The position numbers were made by a program, and so were the translations under genes. DNA of 56,845 nucleotides, filler included, from Dugesia japonica (lineage: Eukaryota), in assembly GCA_001938525.1 (NCBI GenBank). It is 5 parts of 5 records of this genome, joined end to end, with 100 filler letters (N's around TTAATTAATTAA, not from the genome) between each part and the next. Parts side by side here need not be neighbours in the genome. Positions count along the whole stretch, not along the records: positions 44,527 to 56,845 come from MQRL01508436.1; 4 more parts are not named here. The stretch is one strand, 5' to 3'. The notes under the pieces were generated by a model that had not been told where the DNA came from, did no database searches, and saw only the letters and a list, made by a program, of their open reading frames with translations. Below, one piece after another: positions 346 through 52,587 of the stretch. Positions within the stretch are counted from its first letter, which is position 1. Every line of letters begins with the position of its first letter.

Positions 346-486
346 TTTTAAAAGACCTTCAAGATTNNNNNNNNNNNNNNNNNNNNNNNNNNNNNNNNNN
401 NNNNNNNNNNNNNNNNNNNNNNNNNNNNNNNNATAACATAAGTAGTCGCAGTATTGCAAAACATAATATTCAATGCAAATTGTTGA

Positions 487-1085
487 GGTAATTGACTCTA
501 ATTTATAGCAAAATCTGAAGCAAGAACAAATTTAAAGAAAGAATAATTATCCCTGAAATCTTGAAGTGGTATTCCACAGTTCAAATTCTTATTCAAATAT
601 CCGATATTTCGTACTATAGATTGCATATATATTGTGGCATAATTATCGTTTGTAAAATCTTGAGTATATATTTCTTGATAATCAGTGTTTTTTGTCAAGG
701 AAATAGAAATAGCATCTAGATTTTGACATGTTAAACTAAAGCTTTTATTACTGCCATTATATTGTTCTCCACTTTGAAATAATACCAGAATAAAGCTAGG
801 TTATCAACGATCACCAAATATTGGTTCCTTATAAAAACAGTGAACTATCTTTAGTAATTGCAAATGCAACGACTTCCTTGGTTCTTATTGGATAAATAGC
901 ATTTTGAATTTTTAGTCCCAATTGATGAGTAGCTAGTACTAAGGGTTCAACACGTACAGGTCTAACTATTAATTTTGAATCAAGTAATATATATATTTAG
1001 GTTCATTGGCTATATATTCCAAACGAATCTTGGAAGATATTCTTTTCAATCGAATATGAACATTGACACCTGGAAAAAGCAACTA
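487..1085 (-). pseudogene. Polinton/Maverick major capsid protein (double jelly-roll), C-terminal two-thirds, frameshifted
   Basis: LLFPGVNVHIRLKR...LLDSKLIVRPVRVEPLVLATHQLGLKIQNAIYPIRTKEVVAFAITKDSS...PSFILVLFQSGEQYNGS...DFTNDNYATIY...GIPLQDFRDNYSFFKFVLASD follows the Polinton capsid motif order (GVDVRIKL, LYVRKVKV, AKYPI, PKRIVIG, FNGS, PDF, GISxEDY.NGY.LF.FDL.PD). Includes ORF 498-698. Confidence 0.8.
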
Positions 1086-1489
1086 ATTTAAAATTATTAT
1101 CGTAAAGTGGAATTGCTATTATTGAGTAATTCTTAAAGTATATTATTGACTAATTTTTATGATTGCGATTAACAATTATTATCTAAACTTGGAATTTGTA
1201 TTATAGAATGTAATTTGAAGCTATATCTTGGCTGATTGCTAGTATTGCAAAACTATAATTAACATTGTTGGAACATTATTTGTGATCGTTAGTTGAATTT
1301 ATTGTTAAATTGTAGATTGCAATTTTGTTGAATTTAATATTATTATTATTTATTATAACTATTTACTTCTAATTTATTAATATTATTCATTGCTAATTTA
1401 AATCAACTGATTGTAATTAACATTTCCTTCTTATTATTCTGCGCCATTATCATATATGTTAAGTTACTATTTGGTAATTACCTACAACA

Positions 1490-2190
1490 TGTAAGAGAAA
1501 CCTTTAGCAACTAACATGGTGGCAGCGGTCAATACTGATACCATTACAGAAGAAATAATGCCGAAGATGTTTGCTTGAGGCGACGATTTAGAGACGTTCA
1601 TCAAGCGTTGTGAGTTATACTTTGCTGTAAAAGGTATAATACAAATAAAAGACCAGGAAAAATTAGTCGCGTGTTTAGTGGAAGAAAATTTGATAGAGTA
1701 CGCGCATACAGCAAAGAAGGCGGAAAGTTTTCAAGCACGGCTTCGACTGACCTTTAAAACAGAAAGGGATGTAATTAAAGATTTCAAGACTCTGATAAAA
1801 TACAAATGTGAAAATGAAAATCTATACATATAGTTTAAGAAGGTAAAATCATTAGTAAATACATGTTATCTAACAAGAAATTGACAGAAGAAAATATTCT
1901 AGCACAAATGTTAATCTTCCAATCAGGAAATAAAGGAGTTGAAGAGAAAATAACTTTACTCAAGATTAACAACATCAAGGATGTAAAAGAAACATTAACA
2001 TTATTTTACAAGATATAGAAAAGAGAGAGTTCAAATAATATTATGAGTTTCTTGAAAGTGCCGAAGAAAAATAGAATAAGAAACAGAAACGTGGAGGAGA
2101 ATCAGTCAACTAATAAAATATATAAAACAGAATACAGAAGAAACAGGAATCAGTGGGAGATTTGGCAAGATAATCGACAAAATGTATCCA
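1490..2190 (+). mobile_element. Gypsy-like LTR retrotransposon 5' fragment (LTR end, tRNA-Leu primer binding site, decayed gag) inserted into the Polinton
   Basis: ...AACA at 1516 is followed by TGGTGGCAGCGGT (1517-1529), complementary to the 3' end of animal tRNA-Leu. From ATG 1558: MPKMFA*GDDLETFIKRCELYFAVKGI...KLVACL, a typical gag N-terminus. Confidence 0.7.
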
Positions 2191-2224
2191 TATCATTTTA
2201 CTTAGTATTATTTATTCTTTCTGC

Positions 2225-2581
2225 TTCCTTTTGATTTAACTAAAAAAGCTCATGCAAATCTGTTGAATACAACAATCCACGTCAAAATATACTTGTAACC
2301 TTTATTGATTCTTAAATATCTAATCATTCTCCATAAATTAGCAATATCATATGTTTTATATGTTCTTGTTGGAATTCCTTTCATCATTTGCTTTTTCAAA
2401 CTGAACAGTAGTTAACTCCATAATCATTTTTCATCTTTTAATTTGATTTTTGAGTTGCTTTAATTGACTTTTCTACGACTCAAAACCCTGCCGGGTTTTT
2501 AGGATCCACCATATTGTCTTCATTACAACAATTCGATGCAAATTTCAGGTCAAAATTAGGTAATGGTTGTAATCCACCCAT
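2225..2581 (-). pseudogene. Polinton rve-family integrase, N-terminal fragment
   Basis: DPKNPAGF*VVEKSIKAT...PTRTYKTYDIANLW...INKGYKYILTWIVVFNRFA*AFLVKSK matches the Polinton integrase pattern YYDPKNPAGF...FPRRxxxVxGIDDLWQ.D...NKGYKYILTCIDVFSKFAWA.PLKSK. Truncated and frameshifted. Confidence 0.8.
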
Positions 2582-2644
2582 TCTTTATTTGAGTTAAGTC
2601 TAATTCAATTGAAAGTAATGCTATTATAAAGTCGACTATTCTTT

Positions 2645-3043
2645 ATTTGAAATGATTTAAACCTAATGCAGCAAATGCGTTTGGTAGTAATGCTGCTATA
2701 AATCTCAACTAAATTATCTAAAACATATTTTTCTAAAAGGTTTTTAACGATGTAATTAATGCGCTTTAATTAAGAATAGTTCTTTGCAATTTAATATTTA
2801 TTAAAATAATAAATAACACGTATTTGTTTATATTGATATCTATTCATCATTCTGACTTTCTTTTTGCAAGTTTTTTAATCATATTAAATTATTTCTTTTT
2901 ATTTACTCGTTGCTACTTATTTACATGATATTCTGCGATTATTTTCTCTTTTTTAGATATTATTTTATACAAAAAAGATATTTCTGACGTTTAACTACAT
3001 CATCAGTTACTTGATCAATTATAAATGTCTTTAATTTGGTCAT
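2645..3043 (-). pseudogene. Possible Polinton small basic/core protein remnant between ATPase and integrase
   Basis: Lys/Arg-rich broken frames end in ...FIAALLPNAFAALGL, resembling the QxGGF(L/I)xALLP tail of Polinton small proteins. Heavily decayed. Confidence 0.35.
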
Positions 3044-3056
3044 TTTAATGATCATT

Positions 3057-3630
3057 TTAAATATCATTTTGTTTATACACTGTGATACCATTTGAATTGA
3101 ATATATCTGTTCTCACTCTATAGTCATCAGAATATTGTTGTGTGAAATCTAGAAATATATATCCATGTGATTTCTCTGTTGCATCTTGTAAAGATTCAAT
3201 CAGAAATTGTCTGTTTGGATATAAATATTGTACGTTTAAATTGCGGGTTCTATGACTACCTCCTTGATGAAAAAGATTTTGAGTAATAAATATCACAGTA
3301 ACATCACGATGTCTCGATATCTTTGTGAATAAATTATTGAAATCACTTTCTTTATTTGCCTCCTGATACAGATGATCAACAACAATAACATCACAAGGTC
3401 TCAATTTTTTGCTCCACTTTTTATCAAAACCATTTATTATTTTACATTTAATATTAAAAAATTCAGATTAAGTTATTCCATTGTCTTCATCTACGCCCCA
3501 TTGCCAGAATATGTTTTTAAATTTCGATTTGAATAAATTTGATTTCAGTAATTTTCCTACAAACAAAGTTTTACCAGTACCCATAGGCTCAACAATTTAA
3601 TAGACTGCAATATTTCTTAATTTCTCTATC
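3057..3630 (-). pseudogene. Polinton/Maverick A32-like DNA packaging ATPase
   Basis: Walker A IVEPMGTGKTLFVGKLL, Walker B VIVVDHL, then LFTKISRHRDVTVIFITQNLF...RTRNLN...DATEKSHGYIFLD...YRVRTDIF. Has a frameshift and lacks the usual VLFKNPRD segment. Confidence 0.88.
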
Positions 3631-3714
3631 TTATTTTTAAAGCTTATTAATAATTCAGTATATGGTTTATATTTGTTTAACCGGATCAATTAAATTAATT
3701 CCATCAAAACCCCA

Positions 3715-4191
3715 ATGTTCCCCATTAATTCATAAATTGTGAAAACTAATAATAATTACAGAGTTAAAGGGTCACAAAAACTAACTAAGAAAATGATCTT
3801 TCTTATAGGTAAACCATGCCAATTCAAAGTCAAAAGTGACAAGTTTACAATTATATTCTTCAGATCTGAAAAATGTAGAATAATGGGTTGTAAGAAACCA
3901 TTGGAACCACATGATTTGAACCCCTACAATATCAAAAATTTACAAATACAATGATAAACAATTTTTATAAATATAGGAGTTTCAATTAATTTGTAGAATT
4001 TAGCAAGAATAGTCAACTGTTGGTTTGAGACATAGTTATTTCCTGCTTTAAGATTGGTTAAATATGACCCTTTATATGTAAATGTGTTCTCAACAGGAAA
4101 ACTGGTAAAAATTGGACTTAAACATTTATACTTTCAAGGATATATAAATAACATTACTTCACATTTATTAAATCTGATTGAAAGAAATTAG
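3715..4191 (+). pseudogene. TBP-fold (TATA-binding-protein-like) gene of the Polinton-like element, copy 1
   Basis: Single frame with 5 internal stops. KFTIIFFRSEKCRIMGCK resembles TBP TTALIFSSGKMVCTGAK; CWFET*LFPALRL resembles YEPELFPGLIY; VNVFSTGKLVKIGLK resembles LIFVSGKVVLTGAK. Confidence 0.8.
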
Positions 4192-5976
4192 GAAATTAAA
4201 ATACAGATGCAACACAGGCACAACTGAAGTTTCAAATTATATCAATTAAAATTTAGATATTTAATTTTCAAATCCGTAAAATATAATATGTTGAAGTTTT
4301 TTATTATCATATATATATATATATATAAATTATTTCTGTTAAAATTATAATACTAAATAATTGTTATTTGAAAAACTAATTTCATATTCTAGCTACAGAA
4401 TGGATTATATAAATGGATAATACCGACTGTTATGCTTTTTATCATTTAAATATTAATGAAATATCATATTTCCTCATGATAATTTCTTTAATTGACTATT
4501 ATGTTCATAAATATTTGCATTAAAATATGTTTTCTTGAATTTCTGGAAAGAGAGAATTTTTTTAGTCAGTATTTTTTTAAGGAGCTAAATGAGCCGGTTA
4601 TTAAAATTATACTCTTATTATTATTAATAACTTTTCTTGTGTTATTCAATCCATAGAATTTTAAAAATAAAGCATAAACCTTTAAAATTTTGTNNNNNNN
4701 NNNNNNNNNNNNNNNNNNNNNNNNNNATTATAAAATTTCTTTGCTTTTATTATTCCTTTGATAAGTTTTACAAATATACTTGCCTGTAAAATGATCCTGA
4801 TCTCGAACTGGACTAATTAAAGGTTTCTTTTAAACAAATGACATATTCTCATTTATTGTCATTGTTTATAACTTTAAAAATGAATATTTTCTATTAATTG
4901 TTTGGTTTTGAAATCTAGCCATGTCTAGATAGTCTGCTGATGTCTGATACCTTGGTAATCNNNNNNNNNNNNNNNNNNNNNNNNNNNNNNNNNNNNNNNN
5001 NNNNNNNNNNNNNNNNNNNNNNNNNNNNNNNNNNNNNNNNNNNNNNNNNNNNNNNNNNNNNNNNNNNNNNNNNNNNNNNNNNNNNNNNNNNNNNNNNNNN
5101 NNNNNNNNNNNNNNNNNNNNNNNNNNNNNNNNNNNNNNNNNNNNNNNNNNNNNNNNNNNNNNNNNNNNNNNNNNNNNNNNNNNNNNNNNNNNNNNNNNNN
5201 NNNNNNNNNNNNNNNNNNNNNNNNNNNNNNNNNNNNNNNNNNNNNNNNNNNNNNNNNNNNNNNNNNNNNNNNNNNNNNNNNNNNNNNNNNNNNNNNNNNN
5301 NNNNNNNNNNNNNNNNNNNNNNNNNNNNNNNNNNNNNNNNNNNNNNNNNNNNNNNNNNNNNNNNNNNNNNNNNNNNNNNNNNNNNNNNNNNNNNNNNNNN
5401 NNNNNNNNNNNNNNNNNNNNNNNNNNNNNNNNNNNNNNNNNNNNNNNNNNNNNNNNNNNNNNNNNNNNNNNNNNNNNNNNNNNNNNNNNNNNNNNNNNNN
5501 NNNNNNNNNNNNNNNNNNNNNNNNNNNNNNNNNNNNNNNNNNNNNNNNNNNNNNNNNNNNNNNNNNNNNNNNNNNNNNNNNNNNNNNNNNNNNNNNNNNN
5601 NNNNNNNNNNNNNNNNNNNNNNNNNNNNNNNNNNNNNNNNNNNNNNNNNNNNNNNNNNNNNNNNNNNNNNNNNNNNNNNNNNNNNNNNNNNNNNNNNNNN
5701 NNNNNNNNNNNNNNNNNNNNNNNNNNNNNNNNNNNNNNNNNNNNNNNNNNNNNNNNNNNNNNNNNNNNNNNNNNNNNNNNNNNNNNNNNNNNNNNNNNNN
5801 NNNNNNNNNNNNNNNNNNNNNNNNNNNNNNNNNNNNNNNNNNNNNNNAATGGACTTTTAATTTTAATTTACTGTTCCTTCAACAGAAATATTAAAAATAC
5901 AAAAATTATTTAACTATATTTATAATAAAAAATTTTATTAGTAAACAAAAAAACCGAATTTCAATTTACTGTTTTT

Positions 5977-13095: not shown

Positions 13096-16368
<3,273 letters not shown>

Positions 16369-16710
16369 TAAAGGATAATTCATTAATATAATATCGTTTT
16401 GAAAGTAGATATCAGTAAATACTATATTTTATTTAAACAGTATATTATTTTACATTGACAATTTGAATTTTTATGAGGTTCCCAAAAATTTGACTACGGA
16501 ACTAATTTAAATTATTGTTATCTTATATGTTTATTTTATCAAACAGTAATTCCCAATTAGAGTGCCTCGAGCTGTTGATTTTGCTTAATTATTTCATATT
16601 AAATTTACAAATTCCTTTCTAATTTTTTTATTATTTTAAAATACTCGAAGTTTAAAACTTTGAAGTATTCTCAGTAAAAATATTTTGATTTAAATGTTTT
16701 CTGTCTAAAC

Positions 16711-26200: not shown

Positions 26201-27807
26201 CAATATTTAACCATTTAAATAAATTGCAATTTAGAAGATTCCAAAAAACAATACGGAAAAAATTTCCGATTTTTTTCTAATCTCTACATGACAGAAATGG
26301 AACGGGTTCTAAACCCATTTATGGAGTATGAAATTGAAAATTTTGAAGAAAACTTAATATAAATTCTAAAGATTCGTCTACTTTTAAAAAGAATCTTCTC
26401 TGATAAAGGGTTTCGCAGTGTTGAACATCTTTAAACAGCAAATTTTCTCTATTGAATATCAAAGNNNNNNNNNNNNNNNNNNNNNNNNNNNNNNNNNNNN
26501 NNNNNNNNNNNNNNNACATTCGCATATATGAAGTCAAAGAAGCGCGAGACTTCAAATGATCGACGAGAAACTGCATCGAAGGAACTTTTCCTTTTAAAGA
26601 TTCAGCCTCATGCCAAACTTATTTATGCTGAAAAACAATATCAACATTCGCATTGATCAAAAATAAAGTTTTGTCTCTGATAGATTAAGCATATTATCAA
26701 TTAACTAATTTATAATTTTTTTAATGGGTACGCCACGACACTGTTAGACAACTACACTGATAAATTATTGATGTATTAGAATTTTACAAAATCAAAAAGT
26801 TTTGAATTGCAAAATTTATATAAGACAATTAATATTTTTTATTAAAATAAATATTAAAGTTTAAAATATTTATTAATTTTTTTTNNNNNNNAGCTTTTTA
26901 CATAAATTCAAATGAAATCGAATGAGTAAAAATCATACTTTTAAGCCTTGCCAAGGTAAAACACCAAGATTGAAATACATCAAAACATAACCCAACGATT
27001 CCATATCATCTCTTCTTGACTGTTCAATACCCAAATGAGCATTAATACTAGCATATCTAGCAGTACCAGTCAGATTTTTATCTTCCCTTGAAAAAAATAT
27101 TAATTTCAATTAATTAAACCTACTTAAAATACCTGTAGCTAATATGCTTACCAGTTCGATTATCTCTATATTTTTTAGCCAATCCAAAATCTATGATAAA
27201 AACTTTATTACAATGTCTTCCGATACCCATAAGAAAATTATCTGGTTTAATATCTCTGTGAATAAAATTCTTATTATGTACGTATTCAATGCGGGAAATC
27301 ATTTGATCAGCAAGCATTAACACAGTTTTCATTGTAAATCGACGAGAACAAAATGAAAACAAATCTTCTAAGCTTGGTCCTAATAAATCCATTACTAACA
27401 TATTATGTTCTTTGTCTTTTCCAAACCATCTTAATTTTAAAGATAATAAAAAAAATTACTACTTAATAATAACCTGATATGTGGAATACCGACTCCACCA
27501 GCTAAAATTTTATATAATTTACTTTCATATAATAATTGAGGATGTCTAGCATTTTGATGCTCAAGCTTTACTGCAACTTCCTTCAAATTAATAACAAACA
27601 ATATTTTTAAATAAGTATATTTATTATTAATATTATTATTTAATTACTTTTAATTATAAAATTTCAACATATGATTAATCATACTTCTCCGTTAGCCTGA
27701 TTAACGCCCAAATAAATTTCTCCAAATGAACCCGATCCAATCTTTCTTATTAATCTATATTTACCATTAACTATGAACTCTCTGGATGTATCTGCAGCGC
27801 TTGCCAT
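20222..27807 (-). CDS. CSNK1A1: Casein kinase I alpha, 393 aa; exons 27807-27685, 27580-27474, 27429-27133, 27086-26939, 20728-20222
   Basis: [95 protein letters not shown] (alpha-specific). GT-AG introns join into one 1182-nt open frame. Confidence 0.97.
21080..22124 (+). mobile_element. MULE element with SWIM zinc-finger remnant in CK1 intron 4
   Basis: TIR GGATATTTCCA..AATGC / GCATTTGTGGAAATATCC; exact 9-bp target site duplication TAATTTTAA; internal [15 protein letters not shown]. Confidence 0.85.
23470..23742. mobile_element. hAT-family MITE related to the ends of the 16711 element
   Basis: TGTCAAACTC ... GGCCGCATG...GGGCCG..AGTTTGACACCCCTG. Confidence 0.65.
25735..26133. mobile_element. 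Probable hAT MITE (gap inside)
   Basis: CATGGTTGGGCAACCT left end and GGCCCGCG..CCATAG-type right subterminus; degenerate. Confidence 0.45.
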
Positions 27808-44426: not shown

Positions 44427-44526
44427 NNNNNNNNNNNNNNNNNNNNNNNNNNNNNNNNNNNNNNNNNNNNTTAATTAATTAANNNNNNNNNNNNNNNNNN
44501 NNNNNNNNNNNNNNNNNNNNNNNNNN
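44427..44526. other. Artificial scaffold-joining spacer
   Basis: N44 + TTAATTAATTAA + N44. Confidence 0.95.
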
Positions 44527-44934
44527 CAAGATGTAACAAGCAAAATGAAGTTTCCTATCGGTAAACCTTCTCAATTTGTTGACAAAGGTGGGAAATATAC
44601 GTTAATATTCTTTAAATCAGGAAATTGTCGAAAATTGGAATGTAAAAAACCGTTGGAAATGGAAAAATTACAGTATGATATTAAATATATTCGTTTGCAA
44701 TCATAAACAATTGTAATCAATTTGGGAAAAGTTATTAATTTGTATAAATTAGCAAAAGTGACACAATGTTGGTTTGGACCAGAATTGTTCCCTGTATTAC
44801 GACTTACAATGTATGATCCTGTATGTGTTAACGTATTTTCATCGGGAAAAATTGTAATACTCGGTATAAAGACACTACACTATCAAGGATATGTAGATAA
44901 TATCATTTCTGATTTATATAATTTATTTGTTTAA
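44527..44934 (+). pseudogene. TBP-fold gene, copy 2 (5' end cut by scaffold start; one in-frame TAA)
   Basis: KYTLIFFKSGNCR...IRLQS*TIVINLGKVINLYKLA...CWFGPELFPVLRL...VNVFSSGKIVILGIK; colinear with 3715-4191. Confidence 0.85.
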
Positions 44935-45092
44935 TTTTGCAACATGAATGCACAATAATGCAATATGAATGCAAGTATATGAAGGCATTTTCATGTTTGA
45001 TAATTGCATGTTTTTCATTGTTCAATTTGTGTTAAACAGAAAATTTTATATAACACATTACATTTGTCATCTTAATCAGTGGTTATTTAAAA

Positions 45093-45324
45093 ATGAATCC
45101 AATTCAAGTAGAACCTCTTAGAAAGATTTGCATCGAATCGGCGGAGTCAGATGGCTAAGAAGATCTGATTCATGAAACGAGTAAATGTTAATTTGATTTT
45201 TATTCATAATTTATAATTTTCATTTCTAGATATTATCGCGCTGATTCTTTTTAGAAAGAAACTAGTTTTGGCAAAAGAAGAATTACAATTCGTGTTATCG
45301 AAATTCTACAAGAAGATTTACTAA
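45093..45324 (+). pseudogene. Small two-exon ORF (intron 45181-45229), one premature stop
   Basis: MNPIQVEPLRKICIESAESDG*EDLIHET|NIIALILFRKKLVLAKEELQFVLSKFYKKIY*; 49-nt GTAAAT...TTCTAG intron keeps frame. Confidence 0.45.
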
Positions 45325-45768
45325 CACCTTGCTTGTGAGTGTTATAGGTGTAGGTATAGGTATGTGTGTTATTATGTGTTAGGTATTTTATAGGTGTGTT
45401 ATAGGTGAAAATAATCCTCAATATGTAAATTTTAGTTAGTAAAAATTGTTTTTTTTTACTTTGTTATTATTATTATTTAATAAAGTTTTAATTGTCATAA
45501 AGGTTTTTTTTATGAATAATTTATTTGTTCAAAGTTTTATTTAATTTGGAAATTATTACTTGAAAGTTAGTTTTATTGTTTGTCATTTACTTAATTTTTT
45601 ATTATTAAGACTTGTTTTTATAAATAGATAATGAATTATTATACTTATTTAACAGAGTTTTTTATAATTTAGAAATAAGTTTCTATATATTTAATTTGTT
45701 TGCTAAATATTACTATAAGAGTTAATAAAAGAGACAAATAAATAACAATTATTTTAATAATAAAAAAT

Positions 45769-46165
45769 TTACAAAATGTCTCGAATTTTCCAAATTGGAG
45801 AGTTAACTTTTTTATTAATTAAGTTAAGATTCTTTCCATTTTTCTTGACTCCTTGTATTTCCACCTGTATCATATATTGTTTAGATTTTTCGAATACAGT
45901 CGATTTTGCATCATTATAATTGATAAAAACTGTATCCTTTATTGTAATTGTTGGTTCTATTCTTTTGAATAATAAATTCAAAGTATTCATGTCTTTCGAA
46001 CCGATATCGGATATCACCAAACTATAGGTAGATCGTTTTATCTTCACAGGTTCCTAAATGAAAATATTAAATAATTAAATAAAATAAATACAATTACTTG
46101 AAACATATATACTATTGAACTCTTGGGGAATTTCATTTTGATTCCATGAAATTCTGAAGGTTTTC
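45769..46165 (-). CDS. Spliced ORF of unknown function (intron 46054-46097), 5' end in gap
   Basis: KPSEFHGIKMKFPKSSIVYMFQ|EPVKIKRSTYSLVI...YMIQVEIQGVKKNGKNLNLI; 44-nt GTAATT...TTTAG phase-0 intron joins two open frames. Confidence 0.5.
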
Positions 46166-46532: not shown

Positions 46533-46960
46533 ATGATTTTAAGAAATGGAGAAGAAATATCTGAACGAGGTAAAGTTTTATTATTAGTTATTTATTTATT
46601 CTTTTTTTCCAGATCTTACAAGAAGAATAATAAATGAAATGCATTCAGAATGCGAGAGAAAATTCAAACTGTTGGAAGCAGAAGAATATTGGGACTACGT
46701 TCTGGAAAGAGTTGATTGATATCAAGAGAGTTTTAGACCTTTTCAAAAACAAATTTGAAATATTATCAATGTGTGGAACCAATCCATGTCCATACTGGGT
46801 AATGCGGGACGTTATTTTAGAAAGANNNNNNNNNNNNNNNNNNNNNNNNNNNNNNNNNNNNNNNNNNNNNNNNNNTGTGTGGAACCAATCCATGTCCATA
46901 CTGGGTAATGCGGGACGTTATTTTAGAAAGATTTCCATGAATTTGGTTTTTTTGTTGTAA
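46533..46960 (+). pseudogene. Small two-exon ORF (intron 46570-46612), premature stops
   Basis: MILRNGEEISER|DLTRRIINEMHSECERKFKLLEAEEYWDYVLERVD*...; strong G|GTAAAG donor and TTTTTTCCAG acceptor. Confidence 0.5.
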
Positions 46961-49680: not shown

Positions 49681-50911
49681 AGAGAGCTCTTGAGCCACAG
49701 GTGGCTTTTTTAATCATATTTTGTTGCACTTAAGTGATATTGAAAAATTTAAAAGTTTACTATTTTTTCTAGTGATTTTATTTTTTACTGTTTAAAAATA
49801 GAAAAACTAGTAAAATATAGTAAAAAATGAAATTTTAAAGTGTTATTCAATTTATTTAAATATATACAGGAAGTTCCAATTTAAGGTTACATTTTAAATT
49901 TAAATCCATTTATTTCTGTTTTGTTTTAATTAATTATTAATTGTTGAATAAGCAATAGTAATTCATGCGGTTTTTTAAAATGAATCGTTATACCATTGAA
50001 CAAAGAGTATTTATGGTAAAAATTATTTTAAATACGGCGGAAGGTATGCCAAAATTCGCAGAAAATTTAAGTTCGAATATGGAAGAGAAAGTTGTCCGTC
50101 ACATGTGACAATTCAAAAGGTTTTCAAATAACTTATAAAAAGTAACTCGATACAAGATGAATGACGCCAAAAATATCATAAAAGTGGTCGCTAGAAAACA
50201 AATATTTCAGGTGTAAGCTGTAGTGTGAGTAAGAAAACAAAAACGTCAATCCGTCGTCGTTCACAACAACTATTCATTCCAAGAACGTTATTCAAAGTTT
50301 TGCACGAGAATCTTCATTTTAAGGCATTCAAGATTCAAATAACTCAACAATTAAAGCCTGAAGACTTTGAAATACGCCGTAAATTTAGTAAATGAGACAT
50401 TTAAAATATGCATGAAAACGAGACATTTTTCCAAAAAGTGATCTTTAGCGACAAAGCATATTTTGAACTAGGAGGATTTGTGAACACACAGAATTGTAGA
50501 ATTTGGGGCAATGAAAACCTACATGAAATACTAGAAAAACAATTCCATTCACCAAAGGTAAATGTTTGGTGTGGTTTTAGGGCGGGTGGTGTTATCGGTC
50601 CTTATTCTTTTGAGAATGAACCTGGTATATCTGTAAAAAATGGGTGTTTGCTATGCAGCAGCAGGAGGTTACTAGCATGACATTATTTTTCATTATGAAA
50701 CCGCAATATATTTACTATCATTGTAAATAAATATATTGCTACATTTCATATTTTTAGGTTCTTTTATTGAAAATTTAAAATGTAACCTTAAATTGGAACA
50801 CTCTGTATTTAGTAATAATACAAAATTTCACATCTTGAATTTTAATTGTGGCTCTCGAAAAAAAATAATTCAATTATTGGCTCTTTACTTTATTAATTTT
50901 GCCCACCTCTG
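49681..50911. mobile_element. hAT MITE split by the rosa-like insertion
   Basis: GAGCCACAGGTGGCT left subterminus; TGTGGCTCT...TTTGCCCACCTCTG right end. Confidence 0.6.
49867..50805 (+). mobile_element. Tc1/mariner rosa (DD41D)-like element, internally deleted
   Basis: TA|CAGG..GTTCCAATTTAAGGTTACATTTTAAATTT TIR mirrored at about 50771-50805|TA; MNRYTIEQRVFMV...FSDKAYF.LGGFVNTQNCRIWG...KVNVWCG...IGPYSFE. Confidence 0.88.
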
Positions 50912-51849: not shown

Positions 51850-52587
51850 AGTTTGGCACCATTGATATTTGGTTTGGCAATAGACTTTGATGGTTCTCCC
51901 GGTCTGCACCATGATTTTCTGATCTTCGGGTTGTCAAATCGTACTTATTTTTCGTCACCTGTGAGGATACGATGTAAAATGTTTTTTCTTTGATGCCTTC
52001 GAAGCAGTAATTTACATATGAATTTACGCCTTTCCACGTCTCTGGACTTTAATTCATAGGGTAGCCAATTTCCTTGTTTTTGTATCATTCCAATTGAATT
52101 CAGGCATCTAGAAATTGTGGTTCGACTGACATCTAATGATTTCGCAAGTTCTTCCTGCTTTGGGTCTTGATTGACTAAAGCCTCCAATTCCATGTCATTC
52201 ACTTTTGAAAGTTGTCCCGGACGTATCTTATCCTCAGTATCAAAATCACCACTTCTTAAGCGGCGAAATAAGTATTCGCATGTTAAAATCGATGAGCTAT
52301 ATTCGTGATAGGCTACTGACAGCATTTGGTGACATTCCCCAGCGCTTTTTTTTCAAATGAAAGCCAAAAAGCAAAGCTTCCTGCAAATAGCGTTTTGTTG
52401 TGAAAAAAGTTGACATTTTGTTTGCTAAAAATAAAACTATCTTATGAGTATTTTTAAATTAAAATTATTGATTAGTATAATTTGGTAATTAGAAATCACG
52501 AGGAATACACAAAAGATTTGTCACATGTCATATACTGTGTATTACATCATCAACTGTATGACCTTTAAAATTAATGCACACACCTAA
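51850..52587 (-). mobile_element. mariner (Mos1-like) 5' half
   Basis: TIR then TA at 52588; ORF 51945-52325 with RSGDFDTED..RPGQ, WLPYEL, ILTGDEK. Confidence 0.9.

What the first reader, a model, noticed from the sequence alone, without database searches (positions are those of the whole stretch)
44527..44934. Second, diverged TBP-like copy on a different scaffold indicates a family under past selection
Seen: colinear with copy 1, roughly half to 60 percent identical in amino acids by eye, with mostly conservative changes and shared family motifs (IGKPxQF, CKKPLE, CWFxxELFP, YDP, QGY). Downstream neighbours show no obvious similarity between the copies. Inference: at least two distinct element subfamilies kept the gene, so it was functional cargo rather than a one-off capture.
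Basis: partly seen in the sequence, partly recalled or inferred. Interest (0 to 1): 0.7.

Follow-up and report, generated by a model that had tools for sequence, protein, structure and literature searches.

The report
Dead copy of Maverick's own TBP
This is a broken copy of a shortened TATA-binding-protein gene carried by a widespread group of virus-like Maverick/Polinton transposons, whose packaging and capsid genes sit behind a shared TATAAAC word that the intact protein likely reads to switch them on.

Summary
44527-44934 is a TBP-family reading frame, 55% identical to copy 1 (3745-4188), with one internal stop and its 5' end cut by a scaffold spacer. dN/dS between the copies is 0.25 (bootstrap 0.12-0.44), and each copy groups with its own set of intact relatives. 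The gene is element cargo, not a host gene. Copy 1 lies beside decayed ATPase, integrase and capsid genes. Copy 2 faces a gene whose family is predicted to fold like a T7 gp2.5-type single-strand binding protein. Intact ~150-aa relatives sit in Maverick/Polinton contigs from metagenomes. The predicted fold is a full two-lobed TBP that lacks one N-lobe helix and one of four DNA-kinking Phe. The three positions known to change yeast TBP's base specificity are fixed to other residues. [TC]ATAAAC precedes 15 of 15 ATPase, capsid, exonuclease-like and pre-integrase genes but 0 of 20 TBP-like genes (classes picked after seeing the data). Best reading: an element-encoded late-promoter factor, like herpesvirus TBP mimics. 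Binding, expression and a TBP-less control are untested. This scan noted the same family on other genomes (9 notes); my searches found no paper describing it.

The parts
44527..44934 (+). Copy 2: decayed Maverick TBP-like gene; first ~12 codons missing at the scaffold edge; one internal stop at 44704-44706
44427..44526 (.). Assembly spacer between scaffolds (N44-TTAATTAATTAA-N44); hides the upstream context of copy 2
45766..46160 (-). Decayed member of a conserved neighbour family of the element (alignment A4), predicted T7 gp2.5-type single-stranded-DNA-binding fold; convergent with copy 2; possible 44-base intron at about 46097-46054 (by eye)
   Evidence: profile match E 1.5e-9; model; best structural matches DUF2815, ASFV CP312R, Enc34 SSB, T7 gp2.5 at Z 7.3-8.1; high-copy in DNA runs
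3745..4191 (+). Copy 1: decayed Maverick TBP-like gene of a second subfamily; internal stops at 3952, 3955, 3994, 4033
3066..3629 (-). Decayed A32-type packaging ATPase, head-to-head with copy 1
   Evidence: 212 homologues, most of the 120 listed carry Pfam Pox_A32; 54-60% identity to ATPases of the family loci
3665..3671 (-). TATAAAC motif about 40 bases upstream of the ATPase; further copies on the same strand at 3071 and 2826, none on the other strand in 433-4693
2223..2512 (-). Fragment of the element's retroviral-type (rve) integrase
   Evidence: 45-52% identity to L001/L011/L012 integrases, E about 1e-11; those carry Pfam rve
441..1079 (-). Fragment of the probable major capsid protein gene of the element
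   Evidence: 47-50% identity to L012:7980-9188, E 8e-36; capsid label inferred from size and gene order, no Pfam hit

Best explanation
The locus is a broken genomic copy of a shortened TATA-binding-protein gene that Maverick/Polinton elements carry, and the intact protein likely serves as the element's own promoter factor for its packaging, capsid and integration genes. Shown: the family, its element context, purifying selection, and a TATAAAC(A) word on the sense strand, mostly 32-43 bases before those genes and absent before the TBP-like gene itself. Predicted: a two-lobed TBP saddle without the second helix of the N-lobe. Inferred: the host's TBP and RNA polymerase II first transcribe the TBP-like and SSB-like genes from ordinary TATA/initiator promoters. 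The small TBP would then bind TATAAAC in the minor groove through a rewired concave face, recruit host TFIIB through its conserved acidic stirrup, and start the late genes. Loss of the N-lobe helix would free it from host regulators that dock there.
For: Fold: model pLDDT 94 aligns over 148 residues to yeast TBP, Z 13.1, rmsd 2.7; internal two-lobe repeat, hhalign probability 85.6, E 6e-6. Context: L012 holds TBP-like, Pox_A32 ATPase, rve integrase and probable capsid and polymerase genes; L023 has an adenovirus-type protease. 17 longest-contig lengths are shared between the 120 TBP-like and 120 ATPase rows, against a mean of 3 (max 9) when jittered (indirect). Selection; 17 of 18 estimable pairs of intact loci give 0.04-0.33. 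Motif, in 20 non-redundant loci: 30 of 44 TATAAAC sites lie 15-75 bases before an ORF start on the sense strand (background 16%; TATAAAA 11/53, TATAAAG 3/23, TATAAAT 16/62, GTAAACA 2/17); 20 sense against 0 antisense among 82 upstream windows; 24 of the 30 at 32-43 bases; [TC]ATAAAC before 15/15 ATPase, capsid, exonuclease-like and pre-integrase genes and 0/20 TBP-like genes, 10 of which have a canonical TATA. Protein surface: three intercalating Phe fixed in 125/125; the positions of yeast I194, V203 and L205, which alter base specificity in TBPm3 (PMC1636458, passages), are Arg, Cys and Asn in 124, 125 and 125 of 125; the two stirrup Glu that bind TFIIB (PMC7221094, section 11) are kept in 121 and 125 of 125.
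Against: No binding or expression data. No Maverick lacking the gene was obtained as a control, so the motif may predate or be independent of the gene. TATAAAC is a weak but usable site for host TBP (TATAAACG kept 27% activity in a plant assay, PMC10005294, table). The TBPm3 positions contact base pair 2, where the motif keeps the normal A; the G at position 2 appears only on the opposite strand (TGTTTATA), which would need a flipped binding orientation. Gene classes were chosen after viewing, the loci are related, and 1 of 4 SSB-like genes also has the motif. One near-identical pair gave dN/dS 1.0. YN00 failed on the two copies and its bootstrap reached 0.77 (92 of 300 converged).
Confidence: 0.62

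Rival explanations
1. The small TBP is a decoy or repressor. Host TBP reads the TATAAAC promoters, and the element's protein soaks up TFIIB or blocks TATA boxes to shut down host genes or the element's own early genes.
For: The TFIIB-binding acidic pair is the best-kept surface; one Phe and a helix of the N-lobe are lost; TATAAAC keeps some activity with host TBP (PMC10005294).
Against: A pure decoy would not need a DNA-facing surface fixed to new residues in 124-125 of 125 sequences, nor a strict C at position 7 before one class of genes only.
Confidence: 0.17
2. The motif is a site for a host factor (ATAAACA resembles a forkhead site, recalled) or simply the element's version of a host TATA box. 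The TBP-like protein does another DNA job, such as bending the terminal repeats for replication or integration, or recruiting polymerase III factors.
For: A follows the C in 41 of 56 sites; the gene often lies next to the SSB-like gene; no co-occurrence control is available.
Against: The motif is strand-specific and at a fixed distance from the start codon, and the forkhead-type variant GTAAACA is not enriched (2 of 17). That fits a core promoter, not an enhancer site.
Confidence: 0.16
3. The copies are remains of a host TBP paralogue or of a one-off capture that drifted without function in the element.
For: Both window copies are broken; the sequence upstream of copy 2 cannot be read.
Against: dN/dS 0.25; about 20% identity to cellular TBPs but up to 73% to element proteins; element genes on the flanks; thousands of matching contigs per DNA run.
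Confidence: 0.03

Closest known systems
Cellular and archaeal TATA-binding protein (Pfam PF00352; PDB 7o4i_O, 2z8u, 1cdw, 1mp9)
   Same: Two-lobed saddle over the whole length (Z 12-13); C-lobe Phe pair, one N-lobe Phe and the TFIIB-binding Glu pair kept.
   Different: About 150 aa instead of about 180; no second helix in the N-lobe of the model; first N-lobe Phe absent; specificity positions fixed to polar residues; 18-25% identity; encoded by a mobile element.
Beta/gammaherpesvirus TBP mimics (KSHV ORF24, EBV BcRF1), which read TATT late promoters (bioRxiv 10.1101/2025.08.25.672222, abstract and introduction read)
   Same: Proposed logic: host-type promoters for early genes, a private TATA-like word for late genes, a virus-made TBP with a more polar DNA face, host polymerase II. 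BcRF1 is a weak fold match (E 3.5e-3).
   Different: The herpes proteins are large and multi-domain, bind polymerase II directly and need five more viral factors. This one is a bare 150-aa core that keeps the TFIIB stirrup. The motif differs at position 7, not 4.
TBP homologues of large DNA viruses (Nucleocytoviricota; PMC7221094, passages and section 11 read)
   Same: Virus-encoded TBP fold; best matches in the viral structure library (E down to 6.5e-8, 7-20% identity).
   Different: Most of those viruses also encode a TFIIB and often lose the stirrup Glu. Here the Glu pair is kept and no TFIIB was seen among 14 ORFs of L012 (the locus is incomplete).
Maverick/Polinton elements, adintoviruses and MELD viruses (Starrett et al. 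2021, PMC8502044; passages, section 3.4 and one supplement searched)
   Same: A32 ATPase, rve integrase, adenovirus-type protease, capsid-like genes. The legend of their Fig. [quoted passage not shown]
   Different: In what I read there is no text on the family, its range, its surface or a promoter motif. I could not see the figure, so I do not know whether their labelled gene belongs to this family.

Membership tests
TBP family (PF00352) | Profile match above the curated cut-off | tested here: met
   40.1 and 28.2 bits against 22.9
TBP family (PF00352) | Two-lobed pseudo-symmetric saddle | tested here: met
   predicted model of intact relative P0005, Z 13.1, rmsd 2.7, 148 residues; internal repeat
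Canonical TBP | Four intercalating phenylalanines | tested here: not met
   three fixed in 125/125; the column matching the first N-lobe Phe is mostly Lys (97/125)
Canonical TBP | Acidic stirrup pair for TFIIB | tested here: met
   121/125 and 125/125 in intact relatives
Canonical TBP | Binds TATA DNA and supports initiation | not testable with these tools
   needs a binding or transcription assay
Maverick/Polinton | A32-type packaging ATPase linked to the gene | tested here: met
   window 3066-3629 beside copy 1; 9 of 31 family loci; not readable for copy 2
Maverick/Polinton | Retroviral-type integrase | tested here: met
   Pfam rve in L001 and L012; fragment at window 2223-2512
Maverick/Polinton | Adenovirus-type cysteine protease | tested here: met
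   Peptidase_C5 above cut-off in L023, below cut-off in L018; not seen in the window
Maverick/Polinton | Double jelly-roll major capsid protein | tested here: inconclusive
   403-427 aa ORFs in the expected place in L012 and L018, fragment in the window; no Pfam hit; not folded
Maverick/Polinton | Protein-primed family B DNA polymerase | tested here: inconclusive
   875-aa partial ORF in L012 with only an Endonuclease_7 hit
Maverick/Polinton | Long terminal inverted repeats and 6-base target duplication | not tested
   no complete element in hand
Herpesvirus-type viral TBP | Private TATA-like word before late genes | tested here: met
   TATAAAC statistics; 'late' is inferred from gene type
Herpesvirus-type viral TBP | Extra domains that bind polymerase II and viral partner factors | tested here: not met
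   proteins are mostly about 145-165 aa, core only
Large-DNA-virus TBP/TFIIB pair | TFIIB homologue on the same genome | tested here: inconclusive
   none among the 44 ORFs scanned, 14 of them from L012; loci are partial

The most novel reading that the evidence does not exclude
A 15-20 kb class of nuclear, virus-like transposon runs an early/late cascade with a single self-made minimal TBP. Its specificity pocket is rewired at exactly the three TBPm3 positions to read a G:C pair (TATAAACA / TGTTTATA), possibly binding in the reverse orientation, while still using host TFIIB and polymerase II. That would be a natural orthogonal TBP-promoter pair of 150 residues and 8 bases, and a direct handle on whether animal Mavericks make virions.
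Probability: 0.4. Interest if true: 0.82.

Novelty: new variant of a known kind. Interest (0 to 1): 0.6.

Why it matters
How Mavericks/Polintons switch on their capsid and packaging genes is an open question, and it bears on whether they still behave as viruses. A dedicated TBP plus a private promoter word gives a one-protein, one-motif test. It would also be a natural altered-specificity TBP of minimal size, useful for understanding TATA recognition and for orthogonal transcription tools. The window copy itself is a dead repeat; its value is as a pointer to the family.

Tried and rejected
No whole genome is held, so other copies and the sequence left of 44527 could not be read; the DNA-run lay lists pieces that run over the ends but not what lies beyond. 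No RNA holder was listed and no RNA lay was obtained, so expression is open. The summed contig depth over the gene (about 2e5-7e5 in run X1) is not a copy number and is used only to say 'high-copy'. Five scans of the viral contig collection, two of prokaryote genomes (one uninformative ATPase fragment, L035) and a phage tblastn gave no usable relative, so no TBP-less Maverick control. Shared stop: both copies have a stop in the same aligned column. I considered read-through or a shared ancestral break and rejected both: more than 99.9% of summed depth in four DNA runs shows another base there, intact relatives have a residue there, and coincidence has about a 6% chance. L032-L034 (E 7e-6 to 6e-5) look like ordinary longer TBPs in non-element contexts and were left out of family counts. 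Eleven near-duplicate or short loci (L002, L003, L006, L007, L009, L011, L014, L022, L027, L030, L031) were dropped before the motif counts. Atlas and sequence searches did not name the SSB-like neighbour; only the fold search did, at middling Z. The origin of the family (host, archaeal or large-virus TBP) was not resolved. No complex prediction was run. Paper searches without a description of the family: 0 papers; 0 papers; subscription journals and Repbase are not covered, and bioRxiv supplements and all figures were not visible.

Full report
Observation. The window is five AT-rich scaffolds joined by N44-TTAATTAATTAA-N44 spacers. The finding starts at the first base after the spacer at 44427-44526. 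Frame 44527 (+) reads 135 codons with one internal stop at 44704-44706. It aligns with copy 1 (3745-4191, four internal stops) at 74 of 134 residues and 68% of 392 bases. Both pass the Pfam TBP cut-off, and the best solved relatives are all TBPs. Of 58 differing residues, 21 are BLOSUM-positive and 32 are neutral or better, so 'mostly conservative' is only half true. The downstream flanks of the two copies share nothing by tblastx.

Selection. On 131 codons without stops or gaps, differences fall 39, 29 and 63 on codon positions 1, 2 and 3. dN/dS is 0.25 (NG86; 295 of 300 bootstraps, 0.12-0.44), 0.39 (LWL85) and 0.08 (ML). YN00 failed on the full data, and dS is near saturation. The same DNA read in shifted frames gives 1.1 and 1.7. 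Among 23 pairs of intact loci at 60% identity or more, 5 are saturated, 17 give 0.04-0.33 and one 97%-identical pair gives 1.0. In a tree of 130 sequences, copy 1 groups with P0012 and P0013 (support 0.997). Copy 2 groups with P0004-P0008, P0010 and P0011 (support 0.66). Copy 1 has the longest terminal branch of that clade and copy 2 the third longest, as expected of decay. So two subfamilies diverged under constraint, and these two copies died later.

What carries it. The first search found 15 relatives of 21 candidates, at 50-73% identity over most of the query; most are about 150 aa and open. A profile of 27 found 531 clusters at E 1e-5 or better, and 551 representatives at 1e-10 in the 50% library; the weaker ones include ordinary TBPs. 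A metagenome scan gave 34 loci, 31 of this family. L012 reads: E2 ubiquitin-conjugating enzyme, SSB-like gene, unknown, TBP-like, unknown, Pox_A32 ATPase, small gene, rve integrase, two ~340-aa genes, small gene, 403-aa probable major capsid, exonuclease-like gene, partial probable polymerase. The capsid, exonuclease and polymerase labels are my inference from size, order and motifs; Pfam does not confirm them. In the window, copy 1 sits in a decayed element with ATPase (3066-3629), integrase (2223-2512) and capsid (441-1079) fragments on the minus strand. Copy 2 faces a decayed gene at 45766-46160 that matches a neighbour family found in 17 of the 31 loci at E below 1e-12, 13 of them in the profile itself (E 1.5e-9). 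That family's model best matches four gp2.5-type single-strand binding proteins at Z 7.3-8.1, with the next row at 5.3. Four DNA runs from three studies lay 4472, 3798, 3838 and 441 contigs on 44528-46165, piled on the TBP-like and SSB-like genes. The gene is a high-copy repeat in this organism, and the stop of copy 2 is not shared by more than 99.9% of the summed depth. The ATPase is head-to-head only at copy 1; in the 9 loci that hold it, it is downstream on the same strand.

The protein. A model of P0005 from 27 sequences has pLDDT 94 and aligns over 148 residues with yeast TBP 66-240 (Z 13.1, rmsd 2.7). Viral-library matches are TBPs of large DNA viruses at 7-20% identity. The N-lobe has only a short first helix and no helix between its last strand and the C-lobe. 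The internal repeat alignment puts a mostly basic residue where the first N-lobe Phe should be. In 125 intact close relatives, the other three Phe and the stirrup Glu pair are kept (125, 125, 125; 121 and 125). The columns matching yeast I194, V203 and L205 are Arg (124), Cys (125) and Asn (125). I mapped these through the E. cuniculi alignment and Pro191 as numbered in PMC1636458; that the yeast segment has the same spacing is recalled. That paper (passages read) states that I194F, V203T and L205V give TBPm3 the ability to accept G at base 2, and that the C-lobe contacts the 5' half of the box. A DNA face fixed to new residues points to a changed target, not to lost binding (inference).

The motif. 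Upstream of the TBP-like genes lie ordinary TATA boxes (10 of 20) and a TCAT-type initiator ('initiator' is recalled). Upstream of other genes lies TATAAAC. In 20 non-redundant loci there are 44 sites (shuffle mean 26, max 39 of 200). Thirty lie 15-75 bases before a start on the sense strand against a 16% background, while control words are near background. Twenty-four of the 30 are at 32-43 bases. [TC]ATAAAC precedes 5/5 ATPases, 2/2 capsid, 5/5 exonuclease-like (one at 9 bases, probably a mis-called start) and 3/3 pre-integrase genes, 1/4 SSB-like genes and 0/20 TBP-like genes. The classes were chosen after and the loci are kin. The window's own element remnant has three sites, all on the strand of its ATPase, integrase and capsid genes, one about 40 bases before the ATPase.

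Mechanism. Most likely an early/late switch. Host TBP transcribes the small TBP, which then marks TATAAAC promoters and hands them to host TFIIB and polymerase II (0.62). Shown: family, context, selection, motif statistics, residue conservation. Predicted: fold. Inferred: binding, timing, TFIIB use. One puzzle remains: the rewired pocket faces base 2, and only the reverse strand TGTTTATA has a G there. Either the protein binds flipped, or the C at position 7 is admitted by the reduced N-lobe. Rivals are a decoy or repressor role (0.17), a host-read motif with another DNA job for the protein (0.16), and neutral capture (0.03).

Comparison and novelty. It works like the herpesvirus TBP mimics that read TATT (10.1101/2025.08.25.672222, abstract and introduction) but fails their architecture. 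Large-virus TBPs usually come with their own TFIIB (PMC7221094, passages and section 11). Starrett et al. label a TBP-like gene in a figure legend on MELD viruses (PMC8502044, section 3.4; preprint 10.1101/697771, passages; figure not seen; one supplement searched without a hit). Seven paper searches found no description of the family or the motif. Nine earlier notes of this scan, eight shown, report the same family on other genomes, most with a shared TATA-like motif. I saw them after my own motif result, and they are not independent proof. The TBPm3-position match and the SSB assignment were not in the lines shown. Verdict: a real, dead copy of a new variant of viral TBP; interest 0.6.

Noticed in passing
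P0271-P0414: Many distant relatives of about 160-190 aa keep the full N-lobe helix yet share the Asn at the L205-equivalent (41 of 45 long forms). The shortened form seems to derive from a wider TBP family of unknown genomic context.
   Followed up: partly
L023-L029, 70 bases before the TBP-like gene: One clade has TTGTTTTAC-like sequence about 50 bases upstream and ATCATAAT near the start instead of a TATA box.
   Followed up: no
L012:225-719, L008:4008-4316, L015:1918-3327, L019:1265-1804, L020:1618-1971: Cargo genes near the TBP-like gene: E2 ubiquitin-conjugating enzyme, dual-specificity phosphatase, and secreted-looking proteins with leucine-rich repeats (Pfam for L012, L008, L019, L020; L015 by resemblance).
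   Followed up: partly
window 46054-46097 (-); L004, L006, L013, L017: The SSB-like gene seems to have a short GT-AG intron near its 5' end; the related ORFs also begin after an AT-rich tract ending in AG.
   Followed up: no
window 45094-45330 and 46540-46930 (+): Two short broken frames with intron-like AT tracts downstream of copy 2; no match in the fetched loci; may be further element genes.
   Followed up: partly
window 1510-2160 (+): Gag-like retroelement fragment (by eye; only a weak DUF5564 hit) inserted between the integrase and capsid fragments of the copy-1 element.
   Followed up: partly
window 16036-16371 (+), 27120-27455 (-): Exon-sized host ORFs with Pfam SIR2 (E 3e-19) and protein kinase (E 2e-15) on other scaffolds.
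   Followed up: partly
window 51945-52352 (-), 49981-50700 (+): Decayed mariner/Tc1-like transposase fragments on the copy-2 scaffold (Mos1 HTH, E 5.5e-5, for the first; the second by eye only).
   Followed up: partly
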